From: Naegleria gruberi
Lineage: Eukaryota
Reading direction: 5' to 3' (one strand)
Length of the DNA: 64,000 nt
NCBI GenBank assembly: GCA_000004985.1
Contig: GG738864.1
The first letter of the stretch is position 1. Each line of letters starts with the position of its first letter. Positions 3-58,145 of this stretch are shown piece after piece. The notes under the pieces were generated by a model, which was not told the origin of the DNA, ran no database searches, and was given only the letters and a program-made list of their open reading frames with translations. A program made the translations under genes and the position numbers.

Positions 3-923
3 GAATTACAGGATTCATTCGAGGCAATGGCTCAGAGACGAAACAAGACTAATTTCTCTTCAAAAGTTTCAGTTTCCGTTTCAGTGCATGGCAAGAAACA
101 AATTTTTATTGTCTTTGTTCGTGATATTTCACCAGAAAAGAAACATAGCTTGCTAATTGCTGAGGAAAAGAAGAAGAGTGAAGATTTATTATTGAATATT
201 TTGCCCGTGTCAATGGCATCAAAATTGAAGAACGGCGAAGAGAATTTATATGAGAAAGTGAATGATATTACTGTTTTCTTTAGTGATATGGTTGGGTTTA
301 CTGCATGGAGTTCGAAATTGCAACCTAGTGAACTCGTTCAAATCCTGAACTCTATTGTTCATGGATTTGACAAGTTGACTGAAATTCACTTTATCGACAA
401 GATTAAAACTATTGGAGATGCTTATTTTTGTGTAAGTGGATTACACTCCTGTAAATCATCCGATCATCCAGAAAGAATGTTAAAATTTGCCATTGAAATC
501 ATGTCCTTTTTAAAGAGTATCAACACATCAAGTCAAACATTAATTAATTTGAGAATTGGTATTCACACAGGTGATGCTGTTGGCGGAGTTATTGGGTTTA
601 AAAAGTTTGCCTACGATCTGTGGGGAGATACCATCAACACTGCCTCTCGTATGGAATCAACATCACTTCCAGGGAGAATTCAAATTTCCAGATCTAGCTA
701 TGGAAGAGTTTATGACCTATTCGAATTTGAAGAAAGATTAATTGAGGTGAAAGGAAAAGGACAATGTCAAACCTATCTACTAAAAGATAAACACCATGAG
801 AATCCAATATCCATGGATCCTGAGATGTTACACGTGGAAGATAATGATCAATTGGAAGTTTCACAAGGACCATTTTGTTCCAGTGATAAAGAGAGCCAGC
901 AACAAGAGGAATTAAAACAGTAA
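3..923 (+). CDS. class III nucleotidyl (adenylyl/guanylyl) cyclase, C-terminal catalytic-domain portion; 5' end lies outside the window
   Basis: The frame is open from position 3 with no upstream stop. Catalytic-domain motifs are present: FFSDMVGFTAWSS (metal-binding Asp), KTIGDAYFCVSG, LRIGIHTGDAVGGVIG and YDLWGDTINTASRMES. The stop is at 921-923. Confidence 0.8.
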   Translation, partial: ELQDSFEAMAQRRNKTNFSSKVSVSVSVHGKKQIFIVFVRDISPEKKHSLLIAEEKKKSEDLLLNILPVSMASKLKNGEENLYEKVNDITVFFSDMVGFTAWSSKLQPSELVQILNSIVHGFDKLTEIHFIDKIKTIGDAYFCVSGLHSCKSSDHPERMLKFAIEIMSFLKSINTSSQTLINLRIGIHTGDAVGGVIGFKKFAYDLWGDTINTASRMESTSLPGRIQISRSSYGRVYDLFEFEERLIEVKGKGQCQTYLLKDKHHENPISMDPEMLHVEDNDQLEVSQGPFCSSDKESQQQEELKQ

Positions 924-1089: not shown

Positions 1090-2076
1090 TTAATGTTGCT
1101 TTTTGAAACAACCTTGACAATGTTCACAGTGGCATCTACAGTAACATATTTGTTCTGGCAATTTGAAAGAGCTTGGTGTCTCTTCATGAAGTTTCAATGG
1201 TTCTTCACATATCAACCTCATCAAGTCAAAATTTCGTTGTTGTCTTGTCAAAGTCTCTTCAATGAATGTTTGGAGGTGTGCAATCTTTCCATTCAATTCA
1301 GCAATCTGTTGTTGATGAAGCATTTCAGATAAAAGATGACTGTCTTTCAAGAAATTCATATCAATACTATGCTTCTCAATAGCTTCCATCTTTGCTTCCA
1401 ATTGTGAACACCTTTGTGCTGTATCAGCATCTTGCATTAGTGGAGAATGGGAATCACCAGTTTCTTGATACACCTTTTCTTCTGCCTTCTCTTCTTCAAT
1501 CGATACAATCAAAAGCTTCTTTTCAACTTCGGAACAGTACTCTACTTTATCTTGATCATTCATAATTACTCCATGAGCAGAAACAACATTCGAAAGTTGT
1601 TCTTGTTGATTTGAAGAATTCATCACATCTCTCAATTTCAGCAAGTCGCCACAATCTTGTTCCTTCTTCTTAGCATTGGTTATTGGTTTTATGAGAGCAA
1701 AGAGATCTTTCAACAACTTCTTCCAACTCTTTCCTTGCTTGGCAATTAAACACTCTCCAAAGATTGGCTTCTTTTCAAAATAACAATCAAAGGCAATTCT
1801 CATCTCTTCATCAGTAACTTGATCATTTGTAATTTCCTTCTTGAACTTCTTCCAGAAATGAAGGATAATCCTAAAAGCAACCAATTTGTTACTATTCAAA
1901 ATCTGATGGACAGAGTGCAATATTGTCTTTTCATTCTGCAAGTCAAAATCATTCAATTCCTTCGAGATGAATAACATGTGATGCACAATTTGGAACAATA
2001 GCAATCCAGAGTCCTTATTATATTTGGATTGGATTGTATTTTTCAATAGGATAACATTAGACGTTGTAGGGTTCAT
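1090..2076 (-). CDS. hypothetical coiled-coil protein with C-terminal CxCxCHCExCxxC cysteine motif (family paralog 1)
   Basis: A 328-aa ORF. It is clearly paralogous to ORF 57156..58145 along the whole length: shared N-terminal block IVHHMLFIS, RI(I/V)LHFW..KFKKE, a central coiled coil, and a C-terminal CYCRCHCEHCQGC versus CKCACHCEACKKC. Confidence 0.7.
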   Translation of the reverse strand: MNPTTSNVILLKNTIQSKYNKDSGLLLFQIVHHMLFISKELNDFDLQNEKTILHSVHQILNSNKLVAFRIILHFWKKFKKEITNDQVTDEEMRIAFDCYFEKKPIFGECLIAKQGKSWKKLLKDLFALIKPITNAKKKEQDCGDLLKLRDVMNSSNQQEQLSNVVSAHGVIMNDQDKVEYCSEVEKKLLIVSIEEEKAEEKVYQETGDSHSPLMQDADTAQRCSQLEAKMEAIEKHSIDMNFLKDSHLLSEMLHQQQIAELNGKIAHLQTFIEETLTRQQRNFDLMRLICEEPLKLHEETPSSFKLPEQICYCRCHCEHCQGCFKKQH

Positions 2077-10345: not shown

Positions 10346-12247
10346 ATGATGAAGCAAATTAGTGGTAAATCACTGATTGCGCTCCTTCTTGTTTTCATCC
10401 TCACGATGGTAGCTACTACCGCCGTGGTTGAAACAAGGGAACAATCAATCGAGTCAGAGGTGGCTCGTCTTGTCCAATTGAAGGCTAAACTTCGTGAAAA
10501 GTGGAATCCTAATGCCTATTTATCTGAACGTATTTTAAAGATTGCTAAAAAGTTTTCAATTTCAATTCCACGTCGTTGTAAGAGAAGAATTTCTGAGGAA
10601 ACTATTGAAATTATTAGAAGATTGGCTGAATGTCCAAAGAATACTAAACCTTCTGAACCAACTAAACCAACCAAACCAACTGAGCCAAGTAAACCAACTG
10701 AACCATCAAAGCCAACTGAGCCAACTACTCCAACTGAACCAACTAAACCTGGTAAGGAATGTCCAGCTTTGAAGTGTAAGAGAGTTTGTGGAACTCGTGG
10801 ATATAAGAAAAATTCAAGAGGATGTGATACTTGTAAGTGTAACAAGAAGCCAACTAAACCAACCAAGCCAGGAAAGGGTTGTCCACACGTTTCTTGTCCA
10901 AAATCATGTCAATCTGGATCTAGTATTGGTATTGATCAAAAGACTGGATGTTTGGCTTGTACTTGTAAACCAACCAAGCCAACTGAGCCAACCACTCCAA
11001 GTGAACCAACTAAACCAACTACTCCAACTCAACCTGAAACACCAACTACTCCAACTGAGCCAACTCAACCTGAAAAGCCTACTGTTCCAGTAACTCCAAC
11101 TGAACCAACTCAACCTACTGAACCAAGTAAGCCAACTGAGCCAACCACTCCAACTACTCCAACTGAGCCAACTCAACCAACTACTCCAACTGTTCCAACC
11201 AAGCCAACTAGACCAACCAGACCAACCAGACCAAGAAGACCAACTAGACCTAGAAGACCAACTAGACCAAGAAGACCAACTAGACCAACCAAGCCAACAA
11301 GACCTGGTCGTCCAACTAGACCTTCTCGTCCAAGCAGACCATCTAGACCAAGCCGTCCAAGTAGACCATCTAGACCTTCCAGACCAAGCAGACCAACTCG
11401 TCCATCTAGACCTTCTAGACCTTCTAGACCAAGTAGACCATCTAGACCATCCACACCAAGTCGTCCATCTAGACCAAGCAGACCATCCAGACCTAGTCCA
11501 TCAAGACCAGGTAGATCTTCACCAGGTAGAGGTGGTGGTGGTGGAAGAGGAGGTAGAGGTAGAGGAGATCCTCATTTCACTACAATTGTTGGACATCAAG
11601 ATGTATTATTCAACGGAATTGGTGACTTTATTCTTGCTGAGACAGTTGACAAGGAATTCGTTGCCCACGTTCGTATTGCCAAATGGAATGGTGACAAGGG
11701 AGATGCTACTGTCAACGTTGCTGCTGCTGTTAAGGCCGGTTCTGATACTATTGAATTCGATAGCAAGTCAAAGAAGTTTTATTTGAATAAGAAGCGTGCC
11801 ATTTTCGCCATTGGTAGAAAGTATGAATTGGATGGTGGTTACTTGTTGAGAAAGACTGAAAAGTCATTCATTGTCAAGTCTAACGATGGAGCTGAATTCT
11901 TCGGTGAATACTTTGTTTTGCACGATGGTAGAAGTTATATGGATGTTTCAGTTGATGCTCCAAAGGATGTTGAATTCGAAAGAGGATTAATTGTTAACGG
12001 AAAGGACTCTGGTGTTGCTGAAGGATTATTCAGAAACCACAAGCAAAGAAAGGTCTTGCCAAAGGCCAAGCTCAATATTCCAAAATGGGCTTTGGATGCT
12101 TGTGCCAAGAAGGGTGTCACTGGAAGACGTTTGAAGGACTGTGCCTATGACATTACTGTCACTGGTAAGGAATTCGCCAAGGAAATTGCCAAGGATGAAG
12201 CCAAGTTCAATAAGAGAGCCGATAAGGTTGTCAAAAAGAACAAATAA
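10346..12247 (+). CDS. secreted modular Pro/Thr-repeat protein with cysteine-rich modules (extracellular-matrix/mucin-like)
   Basis: A signal peptide (MMKQISGKSLIALLLVFILTMVATTAVV) is followed by many PTKPTEP/PSKPTEP repeats. Three Cys-rich modules interrupt them (CPALKCKRVCGTRGYKKNSRGCDTCKC; CPHVSCPKSCQSG...CLACTC). Next come (RPSRPS)n/(RPTRPRRPT)n repeats, a Gly/Arg-rich GRGGGGGRGGRGRG tract and a roughly 230-aa globular C-terminal domain. The antisense ORFs 10516..11454 are repeat artefacts. Confidence 0.75.
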   Translation: MMKQISGKSLIALLLVFILTMVATTAVVETREQSIESEVARLVQLKAKLREKWNPNAYLSERILKIAKKFSISIPRRCKRRISEETIEIIRRLAECPKNTKPSEPTKPTKPTEPSKPTEPSKPTEPTTPTEPTKPGKECPALKCKRVCGTRGYKKNSRGCDTCKCNKKPTKPTKPGKGCPHVSCPKSCQSGSSIGIDQKTGCLACTCKPTKPTEPTTPSEPTKPTTPTQPETPTTPTEPTQPEKPTVPVTPTEPTQPTEPSKPTEPTTPTTPTEPTQPTTPTVPTKPTRPTRPTRPRRPTRPRRPTRPRRPTRPTKPTRPGRPTRPSRPSRPSRPSRPSRPSRPSRPSRPTRPSRPSRPSRPSRPSRPSTPSRPSRPSRPSRPSPSRPGRSSPGRGGGGGRGGRGRGDPHFTTIVGHQDVLFNGIGDFILAETVDKEFVAHVRIAKWNGDKGDATVNVAAAVKAGSDTIEFDSKSKKFYLNKKRAIFAIGRKYELDGGYLLRKTEKSFIVKSNDGAEFFGEYFVLHDGRSYMDVSVDAPKDVEFERGLIVNGKDSGVAEGLFRNHKQRKVLPKAKLNIPKWALDACAKKGVTGRRLKDCAYDITVTGKEFAKEIAKDEAKFNKRADKVVKKNK

Positions 12248-13144: not shown

Positions 13145-14326
13145 ATGCTCAAAATCTACACTCACCCTACTGGGTACAAGCAATTACCAGAGGGTGAACC
13201 CCTTGTATCTCTCGATCCGACAACCTTCAAAACCTTCACAATTCCTCATCCAGATTTTGAGAGGATCAAGAAAGTGCTTATTAATCGTGACTCTTGTCTT
13301 AAAATTCTATCTGAGAGTGGTATTGTTTATATTCATGATGAAAACAGATTTAAGTGTTCCTATCTTCTCGACACAAAATCTAGTAATGAAAATTTAATAA
13401 TTGATGATATTTCAACATTTTCCGAAGGATCAACACTTTATTTGGCTCGTGATTCTGAGAGTAATCACACTTTTCTCTATGGAAGTGGCACAACCACCTA
13501 TGATTGTTTTGGAGATAGGAAATTAAGAAATTTACAAGATAGAAATGGTACTGAAAAGTTTACGTTACTCTATACTCCTCAAGTTGATGAAAATGGCCAT
13601 CGGCCACAGATTACACACATTGCATCGTGCCATTCCTTTAAAATAATGGTATTGGATCATCGTGAAATTAGAATTTCAGGCCAGAATTGGGTGAATTCTT
13701 CAAAGGAAATGAATTGGAATGAGAGCCAATTTGTATGTGAAAAGAAAATTAAGAACATTACTTGTGGAAGTTTCCAATTTATGGTAATATTTGAAGATGA
13801 TTCTGTCATGTTTTGTGGAGACAACCAAACTAATCAAATGCCACACCATACACATGGAAGGTTGCATTTTACTGTGGATGATGATTTGAAAATTATGGAA
13901 TCATTTGGTGGTTATGATAGTTCTGTTGTAAGATTTGCACACACCCCTAAAACTCCTGAAAGTTACAAGATCTATGGAGAAACTCTGATTAGATTTGAAA
14001 ATTTGAAAGAGTTTTTGAAAAATTATCCTATTTTCACTGTTTCGAATGAGAATGATTTTACACAAATCAGATATCTTAAGAAATTCTTTGTAATTGAGTT
14101 CCAAAAGGGATTGTTTTATTTTATGAGTAATGATCATACTGTAGGATTCACAGTGGATATGTCAACAGAGTTTCACAACATGTATAGTAATCATTATGAA
14201 GTTGTTGCTTTGTCAAATACCATTGTATTTTACAAAACTAATTCGAAAGAGTGTGCAATTTATCCAGAATTACATTGTTGCATGAGAAATAAGTTATTGA
14301 CTGATTGTGATTTTGACTTTATTTAA
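13145..14326 (+). CDS. hypothetical protein, 393 aa
   Basis: An uninterrupted ORF with ordinary codon usage. There are weak beta-propeller-like GxxxxF motifs, and I recognise no confident domain. Confidence 0.5.
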   Translation: MLKIYTHPTGYKQLPEGEPLVSLDPTTFKTFTIPHPDFERIKKVLINRDSCLKILSESGIVYIHDENRFKCSYLLDTKSSNENLIIDDISTFSEGSTLYLARDSESNHTFLYGSGTTTYDCFGDRKLRNLQDRNGTEKFTLLYTPQVDENGHRPQITHIASCHSFKIMVLDHREIRISGQNWVNSSKEMNWNESQFVCEKKIKNITCGSFQFMVIFEDDSVMFCGDNQTNQMPHHTHGRLHFTVDDDLKIMESFGGYDSSVVRFAHTPKTPESYKIYGETLIRFENLKEFLKNYPIFTVSNENDFTQIRYLKKFFVIEFQKGLFYFMSNDHTVGFTVDMSTEFHNMYSNHYEVVALSNTIVFYKTNSKECAIYPELHCCMRNKLLTDCDFDFI

Positions 14327-14506
14327 GAGTCTACCAAGTAATTGAAATTAGAGAATGATCGCAATACTGTTCAACTGAAACATTTAACATTAAATAAACT
14401 GTTTTTCAGAGGTGCCAGTTGTAACTTAGACGTTTTTTCTTTTGGATCAATTGTAAACTTGTTGTGGGGTTTAACATTTTGCAATCATGTTTTAAAACAT
14501 CCAAGC

Positions 14507-14512
14507 AAAAAA
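14507..14512 (-). terminator. Pol III oligo(T) terminator of 5S copy 1
   Basis: A T6 run on the minus strand sits immediately 3' of the 5S 3' end (plus-strand AAAAAA at 14507-14512). Confidence 0.6.
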
Positions 14513-14632
14513 GACTACAGCACCACAGGTTCCCAAGTTGTCTCCAACCTCAGTACTGATGTGGCTCGACGATGCTTAACTTCTCAAATCGGACGGGATG
14601 AGGTGCATTCATCGTGATATGGCCGTAGCCAT
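14513..14632 (-). rRNA. 5S ribosomal RNA gene (copy 1)
   Basis: The reverse complement reads ATGGCTACGGCCATATCACGATGAATGCACCTCATCCCGTCCGATTTGAGAAGTTAAGCATCGTCGAGCCACATCAGTACTGAGGTTGGAGACAACTTGGGAACCTGTGGTGCTGTAGTC. This is a canonical eukaryotic 5S of 120 nt: helix I pairs the 5' end GGCUACGGC with the 3' end GCUGUAGUC, and the box-C region AAGTTAAGCATCG is present. It is 100% identical to the copy at 53002..53121. Confidence 0.9.
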
Positions 14633-14779
14633 TCATTATCTTTAAATCTGAAACAAAAAGTACAATCAGCCCAACTTTCACATTATAATTCCAAAATATA
14701 ACAACAAAATACTGTAGTAAACAAACACTGAGTGAATATCAATATCATCATCAAAATAAAATACAAATATTTACAAATT

Positions 14780-15223
14780 TTAATTTTGTAAACACATCTT
14801 GATAAAACTTTCATAGTGGATCATACCCTTTCCTTGTGGATCAGCCTCCTTCAACAAATCATCCACCTCAATATCAGACAATCTTTCACCCAATGTAGTC
14901 ATAATATGTTTCAATTCATCCACTGGAATGAAACCATCCTGATCACGATCAAATAAACGGAAACTTTCCATATATTCCTCAACATTTCCTGATTCCGATG
15001 ATTTACCATATCTATTACGCATTTCATTGCAGAAACTATTCACATTGATATTGCCAGATTGTGAAGGATCAATGATGGAGGTGATTTCTTGGAGTTCACG
15101 GTCTGATGGAGCAAAACCAAGAGCACGGATGACAGAGTTGAGTTTGTCGTGTGGAATGGTACCAGAACCACCATCATAGAGGGAGAAGGCTTCACGAAAT
15201 TCGGTTTCTGTCAAGTCAGACAT
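14780..15223 (-). CDS. EF-hand calcium-binding protein, myosin essential light chain/calmodulin-like
   Basis: A 147-aa protein with a canonical EF loop DRDQDGFIPVDELKHIM and a degenerate loop YDGGSGTIPHDKL. TEFREAFSLYD resembles the essential-light-chain N-terminus. Confidence 0.75.
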   Translation of the reverse strand: MSDLTETEFREAFSLYDGGSGTIPHDKLNSVIRALGFAPSDRELQEITSIIDPSQSGNINVNSFCNEMRNRYGKSSESGNVEEYMESFRLFDRDQDGFIPVDELKHIMTTLGERLSDIEVDDLLKEADPQGKGMIHYESFIKMCLQN

Positions 15224-17835: not shown

Positions 17836-20800
17836 ATGCTCTCCGATCAAGATTATCAGAAACATAAGAGGAGGAAGGAAGAAGAGGAAAAGAAGAGAAA
17901 GGAAAGAGAGGATGAATCTTCTTTGCCTTCATCATCATCTAATTCCACTCCTCAACAATATGAACATCAAACTCTGAATAATAATATTGTGATAATAGAT
18001 GGTGATGACACTGATAGTAATGATGCTGTTATTATCACCTCTCCAACAATTCAAGAACAACAAACAGCTAAATTTGGTTTTCTAGTCAATAGTCAAGAAG
18101 ACAACAATAATTCATCATCATCACCACATGTTACAGGTAGTAGCAATAAGAAACGAAAGACTACCAGTCACTCTCCTTTAACAACAAATATTTCTCCTAT
18201 TAAACAAGAAGAAGACATGTCTTCTACTGTTCCACCCAATCAACAAGAACAAACAGCCAACAATAACATGGTGATGATGGATAACAACAATAGCAATGAA
18301 AAGCCTTCTACACCCAAACAAGGCACAACAACAACAAATTCCGATGAAGATGATGTTATAATGATTGAGAGTAATGAAGCAACACTTTCACCTTCCTTGT
18401 TACACAAGATGCAAGGTTCTCTAAAGATTGAAGAATCACAACAACAGGAACAAACTAACACTAGTGCAAGTACTACTACCATTCCATCATCATCGGAATT
18501 ATCAGATAATAATGATACATCATCAAAACCTTCGGAAGAGAATGATCAACAACAACAACAAGAAGGCACCAACAATAATAATACGGTTCTTCTCAATTCT
18601 GTCAAGACAATAACTGAAAACACTGGTGTGAGAATAGTGGTGCATGCCTTCATTCCTCCACAGTACACTGATGATCTACAACCAGCCTTGAGGTACAGTT
18701 ATAAGGAAATTACAGGTTCGGGGAAAAACAAGAAGGAAGAAGTTAAAAAGGTAGACATTCCACTGGGTCACACTCCTGTTGAGGGTCTGGATATTTGGTT
18801 TTGTGTTGTGAAATTGCCACTTCAAGTTGATTTCGTGAGCTTTAAGATTATTGTTAGAGATGAGAGTAAGGCAATTCATACTGATAAAGAGGTTAGATCG
18901 ATAACACTTCCAAAATATACCACTCCAGCTGTTCATCACATCTATATTAACTTTAATCCAAAATCAGAAAAGAGACAGGGAATTTTGGACATGTTCAAAA
19001 CCAAACTTTCAATGACTGAAACCTTTTTAACAGAGTTATTTACTCCTTCCAAGATTGATACTGGTGATTTATTGCCATCTGATACTGAGAATAATGTTTT
19101 TGAGAATTTAATTAGAATTAACAGAAAACGAATTCAAATATTTCATTCAAGATTGGATGGGTTTATGCAAAGTATGGCTCATCTCAGTGATTTGAATTTT
19201 TACACTAAAATACACATCAAACAAAATTATACCAGCACCAACAGACACAATTTAAAGTCACCATATGTGTATGAGGATACCAAAAAGTTTCTCCTTTCTT
19301 TACCAGAAAAGATCATTCAGGATAAGACTGATTTCGAATTGAAATTGATAATGACCCTTGTATTCTTTGAAAAGATTTATTCCATCTCTGGTCACAATGA
19401 TAAGAAGAACTTTGATGAAATGATTGATCTTTTGAAAGAATTGGATGTGTATACACTCAATACTATATTTCATCACATTTTGAAAAAGGAAGCAGAAAAA
19501 TCTACACCAATCAACTTGATTAGAGATTCATTCAGAAATTCCATTCAAGCTCTGATAAATGTCTTTTCGGCCACCACAAATGACAAGAGAAAGTTTAGCT
19601 ATTGGATTATGGCTGCTCCATTCATTAGTCTTGAATTGAAGTTTCACGGTAGCACCAGTCCACTGGATATGCTGATAATGCAATCTGATAAGAAGAGGTT
19701 CGATACAGAATTTGCCACCTTGACTTCAATAGTTGAAGAGAAAAGAGCACTCATTTCGAATAGATCTCATGTCGTGTCTGGTACAGATATTGGTATTATA
19801 TTCTCAACAATTTTTAAAATGGCCTCCTCTCTTAATGATATCAATTGTATTCTAACATTAACATCAGATATGCAATCGAATGAAGGAAGGTTCAGATCTT
19901 TCACCACTCAACTATGTGAATTCATTTCTAATATGGATTCTTGGGAAGATAGTGATTTTGATTCCTTTACATATTTATTGGAAAATCATTCATACGTTCT
20001 TTCTAGCACATCTATGTTGGCAAGTTATTTCAAGAATAAGGCTCTCAGTGAAGTTAGCCACTACCACTCTGAGAATATTTTGAAGCATTTACTCATGTTC
20101 CTTGAAAATGAAGAATTCGTTGCTAATAACAAAGAAAAGGATCTCATTTCCCTGTCAAAACTCATAGCCAACTTCTTTTCTACATTGTTTGGAAAGAAAA
20201 AGTCAAGTTACAACCTCTTTAAAAAGAGTGTCTATTCAATGAAAGATATAGTTGCCTTTTATTCTAAACTTGCAGAATCCTTATCAAAAACTTGTATGAA
20301 TGACTATCAACTTATTATCATTGAATCCATTTCCAATAACTCTTCCTTCACTTCCAGCGGTTCAGACCCGTATTCAAGGATTACATCTCTTATAGAAATT
20401 TGTGAAGAGTTTGAATTGGATGAAAGGGCAACACTTGGTAATATTCTTGCTCAATTGACTTTGGATACAGTCAAATCATTGGGAGTTAGCAACAAGGTAA
20501 TCAACAAACTCTTGGATACTGTCTCAAGGTTCTATGCAGACAGTATTGATATTACAATTGATGTTGTTTCCAAGAAAGTTTTAATGTACATAATAGAAAC
20601 ATTGAGTGAGGGATCATCAATGACCATCGAGATATTGTTCAAACATCACTTGTTGTGGAGTCGTTTATTTCAACTCAATGATATTTTCACAGACAAGAAA
20701 TTGATTGAAGGAGTACAGCTAGTGGACAAATTCTCCCAACAAATCAATAACCATACCATCGCCCTAAATGATCTGAGAATTATTTTAAGAGATGACAATC

Positions 20801-23800
20801 AAGATAGGTTCGTATCACTGGCAACATATTCCGGTGTCAGTGTTATTTCCAAGAATACTCTGATAGATATTGACTTTCAGGTTCAATACTTTGAAACACT
20901 ACTGAAACAGTGTCACGACTTTTGCAACCATTACTGTCAACATGATAATGTAAATAATGAATTCAGGTTGCTATTGGAAAAGATTGAAGCTGAAATCCAA
21001 AATAATGCCGTATTTAGTAGTATCAATTCAAGCTTCAATAATTTTGCCTTCCTTAAAGAGCTTCCAACCCTTCAACATTTATGTAAATCCGAGCTCTTTT
21101 TACAATTCTGGAACGAAACCATAGATCAAATGGTTGAAAGTCTGGTTACTGAAACTGAATCCACCTCAAAGATAATATTCACAATTAATGATTTGAAATC
21201 CCGAGTCTATCCACAAGTAGTTCAAAAATGGCTCCAGTTGTACAATAATCTGAACATGAAAACTATTTCATTTTTAGAACTTCAAACATTATTCAGTGAT
21301 AATACTGAGGAGGAGACGTTCCAAGATATGCTCTTCCTCAAAAGAACTTGTCAATCAACTGATAACATGCTTGATGGAGATGCCACTCAATTCCACCTTA
21401 TCAATGAAAACAATCAAAGTTATATTCAATGGTCAAGAGAACACGCCCAACTCATCTCGAGTTTTTTAACTATAGTCAAACAAAAAGAGTACATACCAAT
21501 GATAGTTTCTATTTTGAGCAAGTTTAACAGTAATTTTTCAACTTCTGTTTTCACAGATTCGTACTATGTTAAGATTGAAAAAATTCACAAGTACATTCTT
21601 GAGAAATGGGAATCTGGAAACCTCTTTGATATTGTTGACATGGTCAATGAAGCCAAATCGGCATTGCAACATTTGGGAAAGAACGAATTACTATTGATTG
21701 AATTTTTGAATGAATCTGATGATTTATTGAATTGGTTATGGCAACACAATGATTCCAGTCAATTCAATGAATTGATCAGAGTTTGCAGAGAAGTTACTGA
21801 TGATGCTATCATATTGCAGTCATTTGCTTCTCTTACAAGTGCCAGAGAATATTTGTACGAGTTGGTTTATCCATCAAGAAAGTTTACCAGTTGTGAATCC
21901 TTTTTGAGGGCAATCAACACAGCCAACTTGAACAAGGATGATACAGAAATTCAAAGGAGATTGACAGACTGTAAAGTTATTAGATCAAACTTGGAGAATG
22001 TCAAACAAGTATTTAAAGAAAAGACGAGAAGCCCCTCTGTGACTGCTGTTTTAAAGCTTTTAGAAATTATAAGTGGTGCGACCATATCTGTAACAACAAT
22101 TAATTCTATCTCAGAGGATAATTATATTATATGTAATGTAAAAGGCAAGATCACACACTTGAGTGATTTGATTGATATTAGAACAACAGTGTTAAATACC
22201 ACCATTCCAAACGAACTGAAGGAGAAACATATTAACTTGGATGCTGCTATCGATACATTCTGTAAATTAGTTAACATTCTCTCATCAATGAAGAGAACTT
22301 TAATAGAATTAGGCATCAATGGTAGTATGATAGTTGATAATTACGAGTTTACCATCACTCTGAATGTTGATAATTTAGAATATTTATTATTCCAATTTAT
22401 GGAGGAAGAAAAGAGACTGTCAGAAATGAATTCCAACTGGAAGTTAACGATCAAGAATATTAGATTGGAATATAATTTACTGAATTACTTCAATATGCGA
22501 GAGTTGAGAAAACTCATAAAATGGCTCGATATGATAAAGGAAGGAAATTCTATAGTTGGAGAAAGAGTATATTCCATGCTCAAGATTATTGATAATAATC
22601 TCACTCTTCAACAGTACAAATCATTTGAGAAGGAATGGATCGATTACGATATTATGGTGGATGATGATATTCAATTGATATCACTTGGTTCATGTCTGAA
22701 TTCACATTTCAATCTGATTGAGGATAGTCACGAACAAATCGATTTCCTGCCAAGTTCCGATTTGGGCATGTCTACAATGAATGTAGAGAAAAATAACAGC
22801 AAGCAAAACCTTATCGTCATTGCATGCCAAAATGATCAAGAGGTTGAATCTATTGTTTATTCTTTGTATGCTGTTAAATCCATTCTACCACAAGTTGAAG
22901 AAGTACTCATGTGCAGACCAAATACAGACTTTGAAGATATTGAATTGGTTGTAAGAAGATGGTCAAAATCGGAACACAAAAAGCAAATATTTACATTGGC
23001 TAACATTCAACATTTGGACTATACTTTACAATGTAAAGTAGTGGACATGCTTAAAAATTATTTACAAACAAGTACAACATTAGCAACCTTAGCTATTGTT
23101 TCAAGTACTCAACAACAGAGAATTATCAATGCCTTCTCTAACTTTAGATTTGATGGGTCTCCACTTTCTTCTGAGGACTTGAAAGACTCTCTTCTTCAAA
23201 TTGCCAAACCTGGAAAGTTTTCTTCAGGTGTTAATGTTTACACTAGCCCTATGGCAGGTTGTGGTAAAAGTCACACAATATTTGAACGTTCTCACATTGA
23301 GAAAAAGAAGCTAGTCTACATTTCTCTAAGAGAGTCAGTTAACATTACAGAATTAATTAATCAATTGAATGAGAAAACTAGGAATAGCCAACCTGTAACT
23401 TTGCACTTTAACATTGCTCCAAATGTGGATACCATTGTTAATTCAATACTTTTCGAATTGATTGTAATAGGTTCACTCAGAGATCACCAATGCAACGTTT
23501 ACCACAGAAGGCCAATAGATTCTATTGCAATAGAAATACCAAACCAAGTTGGAAATAGAACTCTTGTACGTTCTGTTCCATTCTGTAAATATCTACCAAG
23601 AGTAGAATGTATTGTTTCGGCTCATACACTCTCCATCGAAAGGAAATACGAAATTGGTACTAATGGTAGTGTGATGGTCTCAAACAATAGAAAGCTAAAA
23701 TATGTTTGCTCATTATTATTGGCTCATCAAAATGGCGTCTTTGTCAATAATAACGGAACCGATTTCGTTAACTTTACACCTAACATGGACAATATGAACA

Positions 23801-26800
23801 AGGAGGAATGTTTAACCATTCTCACAAGATATTGCAATGCTGGAGGTCAGATATCGTATGCTCTTATTAATAATTTCGTAGAGTTTACTTTTGAATTCTT
23901 TGAAAATATGATGGATTATGAGGTTTTAAGATTTTTACCATCTCTAGATCCTGGATTTGCAACTTTACCTCAATCTATTGTAGGAATGATTTTGGAAATG
24001 TCAAAAGACTTTGCTATTAGACAATTGGTGTTCAATTTTAATACTGACAATCCTTCTTTGGAGGAATATTCTAACAGATTCTCAAGTATTAGAAAGTGGG
24101 AAGAATCAAGTCACCCAGTCATTATTTTCACCAAAGAAACTTTCCAATGTAATGGTTTCAACGTCATTTCCTTGGATCAATCTTCAGTTAATAGATTCTT
24201 CCCAGAACATTTGAGAGCTCTCCTCCATGAACAAGGAATTAATATCAACTTTGACTTTAAGAAAACAGTAGAGGAAAAGGGTCAAAGAGCAGCAGAACTA
24301 GAAGGACTCAAATTCTTGCAAATGATATCTGGAAGTTTTTCTCTTGATGAAGAGATGGGTGAAATCATGAAAATAATGCTAATTTCAAAGCTAGATGAAA
24401 CAGATTATGTTCTCACACAAGACAACTTGATGAAAATGATTGCCATTATTTACAGATTCAAATCCAATCTCCCTGTCATTTTACATGGTGAATCAGGTGG
24501 TGGAAAGACTTATTTGATTAGTCATTTATGCAAATTTTTAGATTATCAATTATATAGAATGACACTTCATGGTGGTAATACTGAACAGGATATTTTCAAT
24601 TTTTTGAATAATATTGTTATTGAAGCCAATAGTCATGCTATGGCAACATATGTTGCGTTCATTGATGAGTGCAACACATGTTCAGCAATGGCAATTGTTA
24701 AGGAAGTTGTATGTGATGGACTTTTGAATGGTGTGAAAATACCTGAGAATGTGAAAATTGTTGCAGCTTTGAACCCATACAGATTGAAGAACGAGAAGGC
24801 AAAGCAATTGGAGCAATCTATTCAATCTCAAACAGGAATCATCTACAAGCATCCTTCATTTGCCAACATTCCTGATCCATTGGAAAATCTTGTTTATAGA
24901 GTTCATCCACTTCCAGATAGTTTTGTTGATCACTTGTATGATTTTGGTTCTCTTTCTGATGGTGTTGAAAGATTATATATTGGAAGTATGCTAAGACAAT
25001 CTCTAAAGAAGTATTTGAAGGCAGACGAGAATGGAAAAATAACAAATGAAACTGTTCGCCAAGCTGTCAACTTCTTTGAAAGTCTTATTCATGCCTCTCA
25101 AGTTTTTATTAGACAAACAATGCACGAAGAAAGTTCTGTCAGTTTGAGAGATGTGAGAAGATGTATACAAGTATTTTATTGGTTAGTAGAAGAGTATCAC
25201 AATCCTACTTCTGTCTTTAGAGATGTACTCAACTTGGATCACCATCACGGTAATGAAATATTCAATACTCACAACAAACACTTTAAAAACTATGTCATGT
25301 TGTCTCTTAGTTTTGCCTTTTACAGTAGATTGAACAGACAAGAGAGAAGTGGCTATTTGAGATACCTCTCAAAAGAATGTCCAACCATTGTTCCATCAGA
25401 ATTTGAAAAATTACTCACCAAATATCAAACAAAACTTACAGAACAGATGAATATCAGTGAAGGTATTGCCCTCAACGAAGCCCTCACAGAAAACATCTTT
25501 GTCTTGTTCCTTGCTCTTGTTAATCACATTCCTCTTTTAATTCAAGGATATCCAGGAACATGTAAGAGTTTGGCAGTTGATTTAATCAGTAAATCTATGA
25601 GAGGTAAAGCATCTAACAACAAACAGTTGCAACACTTGCCAGATATTAACATATTTGCATTCCAATGCTCACCTTTATCAGAAGCTAAAAGTATAGCCCA
25701 AACATTTAGAGCAGCAAGACAATACGCAAAAGAAAGTTCTGGATCTTCTTCATTATCAGTAGTTCTTTTAGATGAAATAGGTTTGGCAGCTGACAGTCCA
25801 AAGTTACCTCTCAAGATTCTTCACCAAGAATTAGAAAATACTGCAGAAATCAGTGTAGTATCCATCAGTAACTATTCTCTAGATAGCTCCAAGATGAACA
25901 GAATGTGTGTACTTTACAGATCTACTCCCTCTGCAAAGGATCTCAAGGATACTGCTAAAGGTATCATGAGATTCCACAAAAGCTTTAAATTACAAAGTTA
26001 TTTGGAACCTATTGCTACCAGCTATTTGGAACTTTACAAGAATCAAAGAATTAAGCAATTCTTTGGTTTACGTGACTTTTATAATTTGGTTAAATTCCTT
26101 TATAGAATTATCAATAACAAGATGACATACCACGGAAGACCTATTGAATTTGAAAAATCATTGGTCTTATCAGTTCTGAGAAATTTCGGAGGTATTCCAA
26201 GTGAAGACATGGATAATGTTCTTAAGATTTTTGAAAGAAACACAGGTATCAAATTTACAGAATATGAAAAGCCAAATAGTTGTAACCTTTTGAGGTTGAA
26301 TTTGAAGGACAGTGCTGATGCAAGACATTTACTTGTGCTAACGAACAACAATTCAGCATTGAATCTGTTATTTGACTATGAAATACTTTCTCTTTCTAGT
26401 ACTATTGTATTATTTGGAAGTGATTTTCCAGATGAAAAGAATGATAACTTTAGTCTTTCACTTCAATTACAAAAAATCAAACTGGCTATGTCAGAAGGAA
26501 ACACAGTTGTCTTGGTTCATTGTGATTCACTCTATGAAAGTTTGTATGATTTGCTAAACCAGCACTATGTAGTTGTTGAAAATAAGAAATTCTCTAGACT
26601 TGCCTTTGGTAACTCATCTGTTACTTGTCCTGTACATGATAACTTTAGAATTATTATCATTGCTGAAGCTAGTGATGCTTACACCAAGTTGGCCATTCCA
26701 TTCTTGAATAGAATGGAAAAGCATGTGATTCTAAGAGATGACATGATGAACGAAGACAATACCAATTTACATTCCCAATTATCTGCTTTTGTGGAAAAAT

Positions 26801-29800
26801 TAATGGCTCAATTGAACGAAAAGGAGATTTCAAAGGTATTTATTGGATCTCACAAGGAAACTCTTAAAAGTTTGGTTCAATCCATCGAGCCAAAGGATAG
26901 TATGGTGGATGAAGAAATAACTGAACAGATGGATATTGCATTTGACAAACTTTTATGGAACATGACACCAGAAGCTGTCATTAAATCAAAGAATGAGAGA
27001 ATAATGAAGCACTACTTTGAGGGACAAGAACATTCATCATTGCCAAGTTTCTTGAATAATGTTTTTACTGATATTCAAAAATGGCAAGACAAATTTGGTG
27101 GTATTCAAGCTATTGTTACAACCTTCTCCTCATTGCTTAGTGAAGTTGAACTTCTTATTAGAGATCATGTTACTGTTGTGAAAGAAAAGCAGGTTCACTT
27201 ACAATTCCTAGAATTGCACGATATGAAGACTAGTAGTGATTTGAATACTGAATTGGATCACTTTTTCGCCTCTAACCACAAAGAGTCAATGCTTGTTCTT
27301 CTCTGTGATCCTGTAGCTGCTTCTACAAGAAGAATTCACTATGCTCAATATACATGTGAAAGTAAGAGAAATACATTCAATGCTGCTGGAACTGGTAACA
27401 TTAGACACGTCATTTTCTTGGTAAATTTATCCAGAATTCCAACAGAAAGTTCCAAGTATTCATTCGATTTTGATAGACGTTGGAATTATGTATTCATTGA
27501 TGACGTTTCTAACAGTGAACAACAACAAGGTTTCCCTGAATTGTTCGAACTTGTCAATACTCCTTTCTCAAATCTGATTAACAATACTCTTTCTGTTGAA
27601 CAAATTATTTTGGAAAATTTACACAACTCCCTTTCCAGAATAGTTTATCCATTCCCGAGATCATCTTCTCAAATTCAATCACAACTTTCCATGCTAAGGA
27701 AGTGGCTCTCTCAATCCAGTAGATATTCAGCCAGATTCACCAAACTTATCAGAGAAAAGGTTATTGATATTGTCAAACACTCAATCAAGAATGACGAACA
27801 GTGGTACCTTCAAGTGATCAATAATGACAAGAATATTTTACAAATATGTGGTACTCTTCGTTCTGCAATTCATTACTTTATTTCAAGAATTGTTTTTATG
27901 GCCTTCTCATCAATCTTGAGTGTCATGGATAGATATAATAATTTACAATTATTGGATCAAGAAAATGATTCAGAAACCCCACAATTATGGTTAGATGTTT
28001 TTGAATATGATGTTCACAGTAAGCTCTTTGAAAGTGCTGCCTTTTCAATGAACCAATCAGGCTATGTTAATATTTTGCAAGGAACTTCAAAGCACTTTGA
28101 TGCCAAATTCCCTTTCAGTTTCATTTTTGCTACAGTGGCAAACTCTTTCAGAGTGAATCACTTGGTAGATCAATTCTCCAGAGAAGATCTTGAAAAACAC
28201 TTTGAATTCACCTTGCCAAGATTCGTCAAGTATCATGCTGATATTGGAGATGAATGTATTGTGGATGACGATATTGACATGAACGACGAAGGATCAGATA
28301 AGATTCTCCTTCCTAATGACTTAGTCTCTGGCTATATCAACGATTATCACTACTTGTTTGGATCAAAGAATTGCAATATGCTTCCAAGTGAGAATGATCA
28401 ACTTGTTCTCATCCATGAACTGATTTCAAAGGACAGATTACCTGACCAGTACTATTCCTTGTTAGATTCTCAAATTTCATATTGGAACAATGAAAAGAGA
28501 GTGAAAATTTACTTCCAAGTATTTGACTCTCTGAAAGATAAGAATGTACTCGAAAAATTCTTAAACTCCATCCCATCATGTAGAACCATTGCAGAAATGG
28601 ACATGCTTCTTTGTGAATTAGTAATTGTTCACTTCAATCCAGAATATCACATTACCTTAGAAAGTGATCCTGTAGAAAACAATACTTGGGTAAGAAATGT
28701 TAGAAACATGACGGCAAGTATGACACGTCTCTTAGATTTGCTCAAGGATCCACTCATGTCGGCTGAAGTCAATGTCGACGTTGCAGAGAAATGCTCAAGC
28801 TTATCTCATCAATGGAAATGCATCAAATTCTTTGCTCACTTCCTCAAAGATCTTGTCATTAGTACTGAAAATTTGATTGACTCTGATATTACAAAGAAGT
28901 ACTGGGAAAAACTAAATGGTTCAGGAACAAGCCACTTTTACCAACCAAATGCTCTTGTGGAGTTCCTTCAAACATTGACAGACATTAACAAGAAGTGTAC
29001 TAGAGAGGAATCGTCTGAAGATTTTGAATGTTTCATTTGTCTTTCTGTTCCTGATCCTGATAGCATTAGAACAACAGTTTGCTGCAAGAGATATATCTGT
29101 TATGATTGTGCTGATGAATTTTGTCAATATCAAAAGAAATCAAAGCAATGCGGATGGTGTCAAAAAGAACTCGACAATGATGAAACTGTGGATACCTATA
29201 CTATTCCTTGTTCTAATATTTTGAAGGAAGTTGAAGATATTTCACAAAAGGAAACTCTCTTTATTGAAAAATCCACCAAGCTCATTGAAACCTTCATTAC
29301 CATGTTTTGTGTTGAAAGAGGAATTTCAGATATGCTCATTAGAGACATTATTAGTTATATTTGTGAAAACAAAAAGTTCCTTTCCGAACACAAACTCCTC
29401 AAGTTTATTCTCTCAGATTCAATGAAGAGTTCCATTATTCGAGCACTCTTCTCTTTAAAGAGAAAGGACCCTAATCAATTCGATCATGTAGCTGCTTACT
29501 TTGAAGAGAACTTGAAGGTCCTCCATACTCAATCTAAAAATGTCGACTTCCCAATTGCTGTTTCGATAAATCAAATCTTGGAGGATGAAGCAGAGTTTTA
29601 CTCACAAGACGAAGAAGGAAAGATTAATTTGGAATATATTTTACAAACCTTGTCAAGAAATGGTTTCAGCTTGGCTTTGGGTAATGATTTCGTTGGTTTC
29701 CTCAACAATACCAGTATTGCAAAAGTGGCTGTCAAGTACTTTGTGAAATTACTCCTCAACAACAAGTTATTCGATCAAAAATCTGCTAAAAAGCTTGTTG

Positions 29801-52816: not shown

Positions 52817-53001
52817 TTTTTTTAAAGTTGTTTTGCAAAGTCATGAATCAAAAGTTCAGTGTTCCCTTGATGTAAAATGGAAAGAATCCAAAAATGTTTT
52901 TTAAACCATTTACTTTGAAAATTGGGCTAGCAGTTTGGTTAAATATTTGAAATGGATAAGTCTACAGCATTGAAATTAATGTTAATAACATATGATAAAA
53001 A

Positions 53002-53121
53002 GACTACAGCACCACAGGTTCCCAAGTTGTCTCCAACCTCAGTACTGATGTGGCTCGACGATGCTTAACTTCTCAAATCGGACGGGATGAGGTGCATTCA
53101 TCGTGATATGGCCGTAGCCAT
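53002..53121 (-). rRNA. 5S ribosomal RNA gene (copy 2)
   Basis: It is identical over 120 nt to copy 1, and identity continues about 8 nt into the 5' flank (ATTCATTA). A T5 run follows on the minus strand (plus-strand AAAAA at 52997-53001). The surrounding flanks are unrelated to those of copy 1. Confidence 0.9.
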
Positions 53122-53341
53122 TCATTACCTCAAATTGTCAAATATAAATCTTTTATTGTTTATTGATGACTTGCTTCAATTTGATCAAGACATATTCAAC
53201 AAACTTTCCTTGAGATGGAGAGAAAATTTCATGCCCACACTATTAAAGACTTCCTCTTCATGAATTCCTTGCGCACAACAAAACTGAATTCTAACATGAT
53301 TCTCAATACGTGTCATTCAATAAATACTTTTAAAAAAAATA

Positions 53342-57155: not shown

Positions 57156-58145
57156 TTATTGGGTCTTGTTGATACACTTCTTACATGCCTCACAATGGCA
57201 TGCACATTTACAATTCCCGAGTTCAATGTTCAATTCTTTGATACCTTCAATCTCTTCAGTTTTCTCTACCAAAGTTGTTTGTAAATTATGAACAACTTCA
57301 GGGTGAGATAGTTGCTTAAAGTAGTTCATAATATCAAGGCACTTTTTCTTCAAGAGCTCAATATCTTTCTTCAAAAATTCATTGTCATGCTTTAAGATTT
57401 CATTATCTTTCTTCAAGAACTCAACATCTTTCTTCAAATTCTCAACGTCCTTCTCCAAAGACTCATTTTGCATTTTAAACATTCCATTATCTCTATTCAA
57501 AGACTCATTGTCTTCTATAACCATAGTTATTAGCTTGTTTTGATTTTGGTACTGCTTATCATGCATGCTCTTAGAGACCTCGTCCTCTTGAACAGATACA
57601 CCAGAACCATCAACAACCTCATTATCCTTTGAACTTGGCATCTTGGTGTTCTCCATATTATCAGCAACAGGAGTTGTTAAATTTCTTACCGAACCACTAA
57701 TAAATTGTTCCAAACTGCTCTCTTCCACACTTCTATTATTCACTTCCACTGACTCCTTAATAAGCTGAACAAGCTTGTTGAAGTATTTTTTCCAAAAAGC
57801 AACAGGGAGACCAAGAAGAGTTTCTCCAAACTTTTTCTCTGTTTCAAAGTGCAACTCAAAAGCCTTCTCAATTTCAACAGAAGAAACATTAGAATGTTCC
57901 TTCTTGAATTTTTGATCCCAGAAATGAAGAACGATACGCCTGGCTACATTCTTGTTGGATTTCATCACCTCTTTCAAAGCCTTGGAGACCTCCTTTTCTG
58001 ATGAAAAATCAAATAACAACTCATTAGAAATAAATAGCATGTGATGAACAATGTCGAAAACAAGCTTACGAAGATCTTTATCTTTGTATTTGCCATTAAT
58101 GACGTTCTTCAAGATAATAATTTGTTCGGTCGTCACTGGTTTCAT
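57156..58145 (-). CDS. hypothetical coiled-coil protein with C-terminal CxCxCHCExCxxC motif (family paralog 2)
   Basis: A 329-aa paralog of 1090..2076. It has a strongly periodic coiled coil (KDVENLKKDVEFLKKDNEILKHDNEFLKKDIELLKKK) and a C-terminal CKCACHCEACKKC. Confidence 0.7.
   Translation of the reverse strand: MKPVTTEQIIILKNVINGKYKDKDLRKLVFDIVHHMLFISNELLFDFSSEKEVSKALKEVMKSNKNVARRIVLHFWDQKFKKEHSNVSSVEIEKAFELHFETEKKFGETLLGLPVAFWKKYFNKLVQLIKESVEVNNRSVEESSLEQFISGSVRNLTTPVADNMENTKMPSSKDNEVVDGSGVSVQEDEVSKSMHDKQYQNQNKLITMVIEDNESLNRDNGMFKMQNESLEKDVENLKKDVEFLKKDNEILKHDNEFLKKDIELLKKKCLDIMNYFKQLSHPEVVHNLQTTLVEKTEEIEGIKELNIELGNCKCACHCEACKKCINKTQ

What the first reader, a model, noticed from the sequence alone, without database searches (positions are those of the whole stretch)
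14513..14632. Dispersed chromosomal 5S rRNA gene embedded between Pol II genes (copy 1 of 2 identical copies)
This is a canonical 120-nt 5S rRNA on the minus strand with a T6 terminator. It lies between a hypothetical gene and an EF-hand gene, not in an rDNA array. The second copy at 53002..53121 is 100% identical, including about 8 nt of 5' flank, but the surrounding DNA is unrelated. In Dictyostelium discoideum the 5S is encoded on the extrachromosomal rDNA palindrome. Dispersed, identical solo 5S units therefore suggest either a different rDNA organisation in this organism or retro-/transposition of 5S units. The ORF track calls a spurious 91-aa ORF (14342..14617) through it.
Basis: partly seen in the sequence, partly recalled or inferred. 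Interest (0 to 1): 0.55.

Follow-up and report, generated by a model that had tools for sequence, protein, structure and literature searches.

The report
Known dispersed 5S rRNA genes, Naegleria
These are two ordinary, intact 5S ribosomal RNA genes from the nuclear genome of the amoeboflagellate Naegleria gruberi, where about 279 such genes are scattered singly among protein-coding genes; both copies already appear in a table published in 2012.

Summary
Rfam RF00001 scores full-length 5S rRNA genes at 14512-14630(-) and 53001-53119(-), 105.4 bits each against a threshold of 38. The two copies are identical over exactly 131 nt: 8 nt upstream (TAATGAAT), 119 nt of gene, and 4 further T. Their flanks are otherwise unrelated.

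The organism is Naegleria gruberi NEG-M, not a dictyostelid, shown by exact protein matches on a 441,990-bp scaffold. Feng et al. 2012 (PMC3369914) list 279 putative N. gruberi 5S genes. Entries R33529 and R33531 (scaffold_20:78511 and 117000) are 38,489 bp apart, the same spacing as here. That places the window at scaffold_20:64001-128000.

Parsing their table gives hits on 117 scaffolds, a median gap of 34 kb, and no tandem arrays. The Naegleria rDNA plasmid carries only 18S, 5.8S and 28S, so 5S must be chromosomal.

I found no target-site duplications, A-tails, truncation or retroelement remnants, so retroposition is not supported. Each gene looks like a self-contained Pol III type-1 unit, with box A, box C and a T5-6 terminator.

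Verdict: real, ordinary and already known. The only open detail is what the shared upstream octamer means.

The parts
14512..14630 (-). 5S rRNA gene, copy 1 (equals published R33529, scaffold_20:78511-78627)
   Evidence: Rfam RF00001, 105.4 bits, model 1-120, E=4.4e-22. Coordinate match to Table S1 of PMC3369914.
14507..14512 (-). T6 run: Pol III terminator. The first T is the last modelled nucleotide of the RNA.
   Evidence: Read directly from the sequence. Every related 5S copy recovered that was not cut off at a contig end is followed by a T-run, immediately in all but L013, where it lies a few nt downstream.
14631..14638 (-). Upstream octamer TAATGAAT (-8..-1), identical in both copies
   Evidence: Identity extends exactly 8 nt upstream; chance about 3e-5. 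Only loosely conserved in Naegleria-type copies from metagenomes (6/8 and 4/8).
14567..14581 (-). Box A of the internal control region (+50..+64, AGTTAAGCATCGTCG)
   Evidence: Exact match to the box A consensus quoted in PMC3369914, at the canonical position.
14534..14551 (-). Box C-like element (+80..+97, GAGGTTGGAGACAACTTG)
   Evidence: Two mismatches to the box C consensus, at the canonical position. Only 6 such matches on both strands of the window; the script did not list their positions, but the two 5S copies, being identical, should account for two.
53001..53119 (-). 5S rRNA gene, copy 2 (equals published R33531, scaffold_20:117000-117116)
   Evidence: Rfam RF00001, 105.4 bits, model 1-120. 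100% identical to copy 1.
52997..53001 (-). T5 run: Pol III terminator of copy 2
   Evidence: Read directly from the sequence.
53120..53127 (-). Upstream octamer TAATGAAT of copy 2
53056..53070 (-). Box A of copy 2 (+50..+64)
   Evidence: Same sequence as copy 1.
53023..53040 (-). Box C-like element of copy 2 (+80..+97)
   Evidence: Same sequence as copy 1.
14342..14617 (+). Spurious 91-aa ORF. Its last 35 codons are the antisense reading of the 5S gene. It is not a gene.
   Evidence: ORF list and six-frame translation. The only similar 'proteins' among 5.8 billion are three short metagenome ORF calls that also overlie 5S genes.

Best explanation
The feature is one of about 260-279 nuclear, chromosomally dispersed 5S rRNA genes of Naegleria gruberi strain NEG-M (JGI scaffold_20). 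Each copy is a compact, self-contained RNA polymerase III type-1 transcription unit of about 131 bp. Transcription most likely starts at the G at 14630 (copy 2: 53119), preceded by a T. It is probably directed by the internal control region (box A at +50-64, box C-like at +80-97), perhaps helped by the AT-rich proximal upstream sequence. It ends in the T5-T6 run directly after the gene. The 119-120-nt product folds into the canonical five-helix 5S structure and joins the large ribosomal subunit. 5S has to be chromosomal here because the other three rRNAs are made from a ~14-kb extrachromosomal circular plasmid that has no 5S gene. The copies sit singly in very short intergenic spacers. Copy 1 lies between two convergent 3' ends, and copy 2 lies inside a 525-bp divergent promoter region. 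The identity of copies 38.5 kb apart is best explained by purifying selection on the RNA and its internal promoter, together with homogenisation (gene conversion) or common descent by DNA-level duplication.

Shown here: gene identity, structure, copy identity, unit boundaries, organism, dispersed layout, and absence of retroposition marks. Inferred: the Pol III mechanism, the start site, and the mode of homogenisation.
For: Full-length RF00001 hits at 105.4 bits. Exact N. gruberi protein matches on a 441,990-bp scaffold. The published list of 279 N. gruberi 5S loci contains scaffold_20:78511-78627 and 117000-117116. Their spacing of 38,489 bp equals the window spacing, and the offset is exactly 64,000, i.e. 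the second 64-kb tile. Those 279 hits lie on 117 scaffolds with a median neighbour gap of 33.8 kb and only 2 gaps under 1 kb. The rDNA plasmid encodes only 18S/5.8S/28S, and no other rRNA was found in the window. Box A matches exactly and box C has 2 mismatches, both at canonical positions, with a T5/T6 terminator. Across 11 related 5S variants from metagenome contigs, 15 of 39 helix pairs show double compensatory changes, so the family is under RNA-structure selection. Related Naegleria-type copies (L005, L014, L015, L016) also occur once per contig in unrelated flanks followed by a T-run. Scattered 5S genes are an established arrangement in N. crassa, S. pombe, A. castellanii and Y. lipolytica.
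Against: Expression of these two particular copies was not tested, as no RNA data were available. Feng et al. report that no TFIIIA homologue was found in N. gruberi, so the classical TFIIIA-dependent route is assumed and not demonstrated. The same paper ticks 'tandem arrangement: Y' for N. gruberi, which conflicts with its own coordinate table. The exact 8-nt upstream identity is not explained by selection on the RNA alone. With only two N. gruberi copies in hand, I cannot say whether it is a promoter element or the edge of a conversion or duplication tract.
Confidence: 0.93

Rival explanations
1. The dispersed copies are retroposed 5S units (retropseudogenes or SINE-like elements) that were copied from Pol III transcripts and inserted by a reverse transcriptase.
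For: Many near-identical copies scattered in unrelated contexts. 5S-derived SINEs and 5S retropseudogenes are known in animals (my own knowledge, not tested here).
Against: Both copies are full length and intact at 105 bits. There is no A-rich tail. The longest direct words shared by the flanks are 5-6 nt, equal to the null mode for random 40-mers, and they do not abut the unit. 8 nt upstream of the RNA 5' end are shared, which an RNA-templated copy would lack. The intergenic spacers are only 453 and 525 bp and contain no retroelement remnants, and there are no degenerate 5S fragments elsewhere in the window.
Confidence: 0.04
2. The two 'solo' copies are assembly artefacts: collapsed or mis-joined pieces of a tandem 5S array.
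For: Feng et al. 2012 Table 1 marks N. gruberi 5S as tandemly arranged. 5S arrays are the commonest arrangement in eukaryotes.
Against: Each copy has unique sequence on both sides, with ORFs within 149-222 bp that match annotated N. gruberi proteins exactly. There are no N gaps in the window. The published coordinates show no constant-period arrays: minimum gap 363 bp, 2 gaps under 1 kb, median 33.8 kb. All 16 metagenome contigs (13 from the DNA scan, 3 from the ORF look-ups) carry one copy each.
Confidence: 0.02
3. The 131-bp unit (octamer + 5S + T-run) is a DNA-level mobile or copy-paste cassette with defined ends, or the octamer is a Naegleria-specific upstream promoter element that substitutes for an undetected TFIIIA. 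Either way, the sharp boundaries of identity would carry biological meaning beyond ordinary selection on the RNA.
For: Identity stops abruptly exactly 8 nt upstream and at the T-run, and the chance of the 8-nt match is about 3e-5. TFIIIA was not found in N. gruberi by BLAST/PSI-BLAST. Copy L014 (identical 5S) shows the same -2..-1 'AT', and L016 matches the octamer at 6 of 8 positions.
Against: Only two N. gruberi copies could be compared. A close relative's copy (L005, 1 mismatch in the gene) matches the octamer at only 4 of 8 positions, and L015 matches hardly at all. No terminal repeats or TSDs were found. TFIIIA is notoriously divergent and easily missed. An 8-nt extension is also what a short gene-conversion tract or a shared ancestral duplication would leave.
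Confidence: 0.15

Closest known systems
The N. gruberi 5S rRNA gene set described by Feng et al. 2012 (PLoS One 7:e36878; PMC3369914), Table S1 entries R33529 and R33531
   Same: These are the same loci. The scaffold_20 coordinates 78511-78627 and 117000-117116 map onto window 14511-14627 and 53000-53116. The paper likewise reports that 5S is not located with the rDNA unit, that an ICR and a TATA-like box are present, and that there are T-run terminators.
   Different: The paper's BLAST-defined ends make the gene 117-118 nt long, starting at the T of GGC|TACGG. The covariance-model alignment here places the start 3 nt further upstream at G (14630), which completes the 9-bp helix I. The paper scores the arrangement as 'tandem', but its own coordinates parsed here show dispersed singletons with loose clustering.
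Scattered 5S rRNA genes of Neurospora crassa, Schizosaccharomyces pombe, Acanthamoeba castellanii and Yarrowia lipolytica
   Same: 5S genes are unlinked from the large rDNA and spread singly among protein-coding genes, with unrelated flanks and short independent Pol III units.
   Different: The lineage is different (Heterolobosea, Discoba). The copy number is higher (about 279) for a ~41-Mb genome. In Naegleria the large rDNA is not chromosomal at all but sits on a plasmid. The window shows no tRNA-5S dicistronic fusion of the Yarrowia type (no tRNA in the window).
Dictyostelium discoideum 5S on the extrachromosomal rDNA palindrome
   Same: Both organisms keep their large rRNA genes on extrachromosomal elements.
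   Different: In Dictyostelium the 5S gene is linked to the rDNA unit. In Naegleria the circular plasmid holds only 18S/5.8S/28S and 5S is chromosomal. The window is from Naegleria, not a dictyostelid.
5S-derived SINEs and 5S retropseudogenes
   Same: Multiple dispersed 5S-related sequences.
   Different: None of the defining marks (5S-unrelated body or LINE-like tail, A-tail, TSD, sequence decay) is present here.

Membership tests
5S rRNA (Rfam RF00001) | Covariance-model score above the curated gathering threshold, over the full model | tested here: met
   105.4 bits against 38, model positions 1-120, both copies (repeated).
5S rRNA (Rfam RF00001) | About 120 nt with a three-way junction of helices I-V, supported by covariation | tested here: met
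   The CM structure line is fully paired with no non-canonical flags. RNAalifold on 11 related variants gave 39 pairs, 15 of them with double compensatory changes.
Eukaryotic Pol III type-1 (5S) gene | Internal control region: box A, intermediate element, box C at about +50 to +97 | tested here: met
   Box A matches exactly at +50-64. Box C matches at +80-97 with 2 mismatches. IE-pattern matches lie at +61-66 and +78-83, rather than the canonical ~+67-72, and the IE pattern is weakly specific. Feng et al. also report an ICR.
Eukaryotic Pol III type-1 (5S) gene | Oligo-T terminator directly 3' of the gene | tested here: met
   T6 (copy 1) and T5 (copy 2). Seen in nearly all related copies too.
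Eukaryotic Pol III type-1 (5S) gene | TFIIIA-dependent recruitment of TFIIIC, TFIIIB and Pol III; actual transcription | not testable with these tools
   No expression or binding data were available. The literature reports TFIIIB and TFIIIC present but TFIIIA not detected in N. gruberi.
Dispersed (scattered) 5S gene organisation | Copies are not in head-to-tail arrays and have unrelated flanks | tested here: met
   The window copies are 38,489 bp apart and their flanks do not align. The 279 published hits lie on 117 scaffolds, with a median gap of 33.8 kb and no constant period.
Dispersed (scattered) 5S gene organisation | Not linked to the 18S-5.8S-28S unit | tested here: met
   No other rRNA family was found in the 64-kb window. 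The Naegleria rDNA plasmids encode only 18S, 5.8S and 28S.
5S retropseudogene / 5S-derived SINE | Target-site duplications flanking the insert | tested here: not met
   The longest shared flank words are 5-6 nt, do not abut the unit, and equal the null mode for random 40-mers.
5S retropseudogene / 5S-derived SINE | 3' A-rich or LINE-derived tail; 5' end coinciding with the RNA start; sequence decay or truncation | tested here: not met
   The unit ends in a T-run followed by unique DNA. Shared sequence extends 8 nt upstream of the RNA start. Both copies are full length and identical.
Tandem 5S rDNA array | Repeated unit (gene plus spacer) with a constant period | tested here: not met
   There are only two copies in 64 kb and no degenerate copies (blastn with word size 7). 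Protein-coding genes lie within 149-222 bp on each side.

The most novel reading that the evidence does not exclude
The sharply bounded 131-bp identity (TAATGAAT + 5S + T-run) could reflect a Naegleria-specific proximal upstream promoter element. Such an element might let 5S genes be transcribed without a recognisable TFIIIA. Alternatively it could mark a defined homogenisation or mobilisation unit that keeps about 260 dispersed copies identical genome-wide. Neither has been analysed in the published description of these genes.
Probability: 0.15. Interest if true: 0.35.

Novelty: already known. Interest (0 to 1): 0.1.

Why it matters
It matters little beyond correct annotation. The two loci should be labelled as 5S rRNA genes, and the overlapping 91-aa ORF should be discarded. 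The result confirms that Naegleria splits its rRNA genes between an extrachromosomal plasmid (18S/5.8S/28S) and hundreds of scattered chromosomal 5S genes. That raises the general question of how the two compartments are kept in balance and how the dispersed copies stay identical. Two small corrections to the literature follow. First, the published coordinates do not support a 'tandem' arrangement. Second, the statement that Naegleria has 'no rRNA genes in the nuclear DNA' (PMC5805870) does not hold for 5S.

Tried and rejected
1. I tried to walk along the scaffold to the next 5S copy (scaffold_20:132468, about 4.5 kb past the window end) with the look-up of encoding contigs. Three look-ups found nothing on record, although the proteins are in the protein collection.

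2. Exact-pattern scans of viral contigs and of bacterial/archaeal genome contigs for contaminating amoeba DNA found no matches.

3. I used the spurious antisense ORF as bait in the 5.8-billion-protein collection to recover more 5S loci. A 46-aa query gave only three hits. These were useful, but too few to settle whether the octamer is conserved.

4. I looked for TSDs, A-tails and degenerate copies to support retroposition and found none.

5. I looked for sub-threshold RNA families around both loci and found only chance-level hits.

6. I considered a fixed-position TATA box. By eye on the aligned flanks (no scan was run), AT-rich stretches upstream sit at different distances in each copy (about -16 in copy 1, about -29 in copy 2), which means little in a 66% A+T genome.

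7. Clark & Cross 1987 (PMC367933) is not held in the library. The N. fowleri and N. lovaniensis genome papers do not mention 5S.

Full report
**Observation.** Reading the minus strand at 14300-14900 and 52800-53400 shows the same sequence, GGCTACGGCC...GCTGTAGTC, followed by T6 in copy 1 and T5 in copy 2. Rfam cmscan of the whole window at gathering thresholds returns only two hits, both RF00001 5S_rRNA. They lie at 14512-14630(-) and 53001-53119(-), each 105.4 bits (threshold 38), E=4.4e-22, covering model positions 1-120 with every helix paired.

Pairwise alignment and base-by-base extension show the copies are identical over the 119-nt gene, exactly 8 nt upstream (TAATGAAT) and 4 further T downstream, 131 nt in all. 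Outside that the flanks are unrelated. Given the window's base composition, an 8-nt match by chance has a probability of about 3e-5. A word-size-7 blastn finds no further or degenerate 5S copies in the window. ARAGORN finds no tRNA. The 91-aa ORF 14342-14617(+) exists, and its last 35 codons are the antisense reading of the 5S gene.

**Organism.** The window is about 34% G+C and packed with long, mostly intron-less ORFs rich in N/Q/S tracts. Four of five ORFs looked up by exact sequence are Naegleria gruberi predicted proteins (EFC45117.1, EFC45215.1, EFC45212.1, EFC45204.1), on a contig of 441,990 bp.

**What is already known.**
- Feng et al. 2012 (PMC3369914) searched the JGI Naegr1 assembly by BLASTn and reported 279 putative 5S rRNA genes. 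They describe them as not located with the rDNA unit, with an internal control region and a TATA-like box, and with no TFIIIA homologue detectable.
- Their Table S1 lists scaffold_20:78511-78627 (R33529) and scaffold_20:117000-117116 (R33531).
- The spacing of those two entries, 38,489 bp, equals 53001-14512. The offset to window coordinates is exactly 64,000, so the window is scaffold_20:64001-128000 and both copies are already in print.
- Their legend places +1 at a T. That is the T at 14627, the edge of the BLAST match. The covariance-model alignment instead starts 3 nt upstream at G 14630, which completes helix I.

**Genome-wide layout.** Parsing the table gives 279 hits on 117 scaffolds, of which 264 are at least 110 nt long. 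The median gap between neighbours on one scaffold is 33.8 kb and the minimum is 363 bp. Only 2 gaps are under 1 kb and 23 are under 3 kb. This is a dispersed layout with some loose clustering and no constant-period arrays. The 'tandem: Y' entry in that paper's Table 1 is not borne out by its own coordinates. Scaffold_20 alone carries seven copies.

**Why 5S is chromosomal here.** Naegleria keeps 18S, 5.8S and 28S as single copies on 3,000-5,000 copies of a ~14-kb extrachromosomal circle. The published plasmid annotations list only those three genes (PMC5805870; PMC12482156). [quoted passage not shown] Scattered 5S genes are a recognised, if minority, arrangement in Neurospora crassa, S. pombe, Acanthamoeba castellanii (PMC1635290) and Yarrowia lipolytica (PMC2566860).

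**Anatomy and likely mechanism.** Each copy looks like a self-contained Pol III type-1 unit.
- Box A (AGTTAAGCATCGTCG) matches the consensus exactly at +50-64.
- A box C-like element (GAGGTTGGAGACAACTTG) lies at +80-97 with two mismatches.
- A T5-6 terminator follows the gene directly.
- The start is a purine preceded by a pyrimidine in all copies seen except L006, which has G at -1.
- Copy 1 lies in a 453-bp spacer between two convergent 3' ends. It is 180 nt from the stop codon of the 393-aa gene and 149 nt from the stop codon of the EF-hand gene.
- Copy 2 lies in a 525-bp divergent promoter region. It is 180 nt from the ATG of a Kelch-Ras-type gene and 222 nt from the ATG of a BTB-pentapeptide-TLDc gene.
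- Those spacers leave no room for associated elements.

Transcription by Pol III, the start site, and the factor requirements are inferred and not shown here.

**Related copies elsewhere.** A 30-nt loop C/helix III pattern found 13 JGI metagenome contigs, each with a single match, and no viral contigs. L005 differs from N. gruberi at one position. The VFQM/VFQO and LLBY contigs belong to other organisms (26-32 differences). All copies sit in unrelated flanks, and all but L013 have a T-run directly after the gene (L013's lies a few nt downstream).

Using the antisense spurious ORF as protein bait gave three more ENA contigs:
- L014 has an identical 5S, but its upstream flank is cut off at the contig end.
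- L015 has 12 differences.
- L016 is a variant with a 2-nt insertion, sitting among tRNA-Glu, tRNA-Met and tRNA-Glu genes.

The octamer is only loosely conserved in these copies: L016 TTATCAAT (6/8), L005 AAGTAGAT (4/8), L015 TTAATCTC. Across 11 distinct variants, RNAalifold predicts 39 pairs, of which 15 show double compensatory changes. This is a structurally constrained, functional RNA family, not a set of decaying copies.

**Tests of the alternatives.**
- Retroposition: there is no A-tail. The flank words shared in direct orientation are 5-6 nt, which equals the null mode and they do not abut the unit. The copies are full length and identical. The shared sequence extends 8 nt upstream of the RNA start, which an RNA-templated copy would not contain.
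- Collapsed array: both copies have unique flanks with annotated genes on each side. There are no N gaps. The published hits lie on 117 scaffolds.
- Relaxed Rfam searches around both loci found nothing else credible.

**What remains open.** With only two N. gruberi copies accessible, I cannot decide whether the shared octamer is a proximal promoter element, the end of a gene-conversion tract, or a trace of common duplication. The scaffold could not be reached through the look-up of encoding contigs. Aligning all 279 loci would settle it.

**Verdict.** This is a real feature that was correctly spotted. It is an ordinary member of a gene set already catalogued for this genome, in an arrangement long known from other eukaryotes. 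Novelty: already known. Interest: low.

Noticed in passing
window 17836-32697 (+): A single uninterrupted ORF of 4,953 aa with AAA/dynein-type ATPase hits (about residues 2190-2660) and an RZ-type zinc finger (residues 4225-4270, E=4e-20). This is an RNF213/ZNFX1-like giant protein in Naegleria.
   Followed up: partly
window 1090-2076 (-) and 57156-58145 (-): Two paralogous ~328-aa ORFs 55 kb apart (31% identity, E=4e-32). They share a conserved N-terminus (IVHHMLFIS) and a C-terminal CxCxCHCExCxxC cysteine motif. Neither has a Pfam family above threshold.
   Followed up: partly
window 10346-12247 (+): A 633-aa ORF dominated by PT/PS/PR-rich short repeats (TKPTEP..., SRPSRP...), with a signal-like N-terminus and small Cys-rich modules. 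It produces the local G+C peak (41.6%) and strong skews. No Pfam hit.
   Followed up: no
L016:1-1354 (ENA ERZ929261 contig k127_101776): A Naegleria-type 5S gene carrying a 2-nt insertion in loop C (92 bits) lies inside a cluster of tRNA genes (tRNA-Glu, tRNA-Met, tRNA-Glu and a partial tRNA). So some Naegleria-type 5S copies sit in Pol III gene clusters.
   Followed up: partly
L001-L004, L006-L012 (VFQM/VFQO metagenome contigs): An unidentified organism shares the identical 30-nt loop C/helix III sequence. Its 5S copies also sit singly in unrelated flanks. They show copy-to-copy microheterogeneity in helix II that is compensatory (GCG/CGC, GTG/CAC, GCA/TGC).
   Followed up: partly
window 14327-14506 and 52817-52996: In both copies the distance from the end of the T-run to the boundary of the neighbouring ORF is exactly 180 nt (a stop codon in copy 1, an ATG in copy 2). 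The two stretches do not align, so this is probably coincidence.
   Followed up: partly
window 14550-14636 (-) and 53039-53125 (-): The shared octamer contains an ATG (positions -6 to -4) in frame with a 28-codon sense ORF through the 5S gene (MNGYGHITMNAPHPVRFEKLSIVEPHQY). Together with the 35-codon antisense frame, this makes 5S loci prone to spurious gene calls; three such calls exist in ENA metagenome annotations.
   Followed up: partly
literature (PMC3369914 Table 1 vs Table S1; PMC5805870): The 2012 paper labels N. gruberi 5S genes as tandemly arranged, but its coordinate table shows dispersed singletons. It also starts the gene 3 nt too far 3'. [quoted passage not shown]
   Followed up: yes
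window 27-923 (+): An adenylate/guanylate cyclase catalytic domain (Pfam PF00211, E=3e-54) lies at the left edge of the window. It is probably the 3' part of a larger gene that starts before the window.
   Followed up: no
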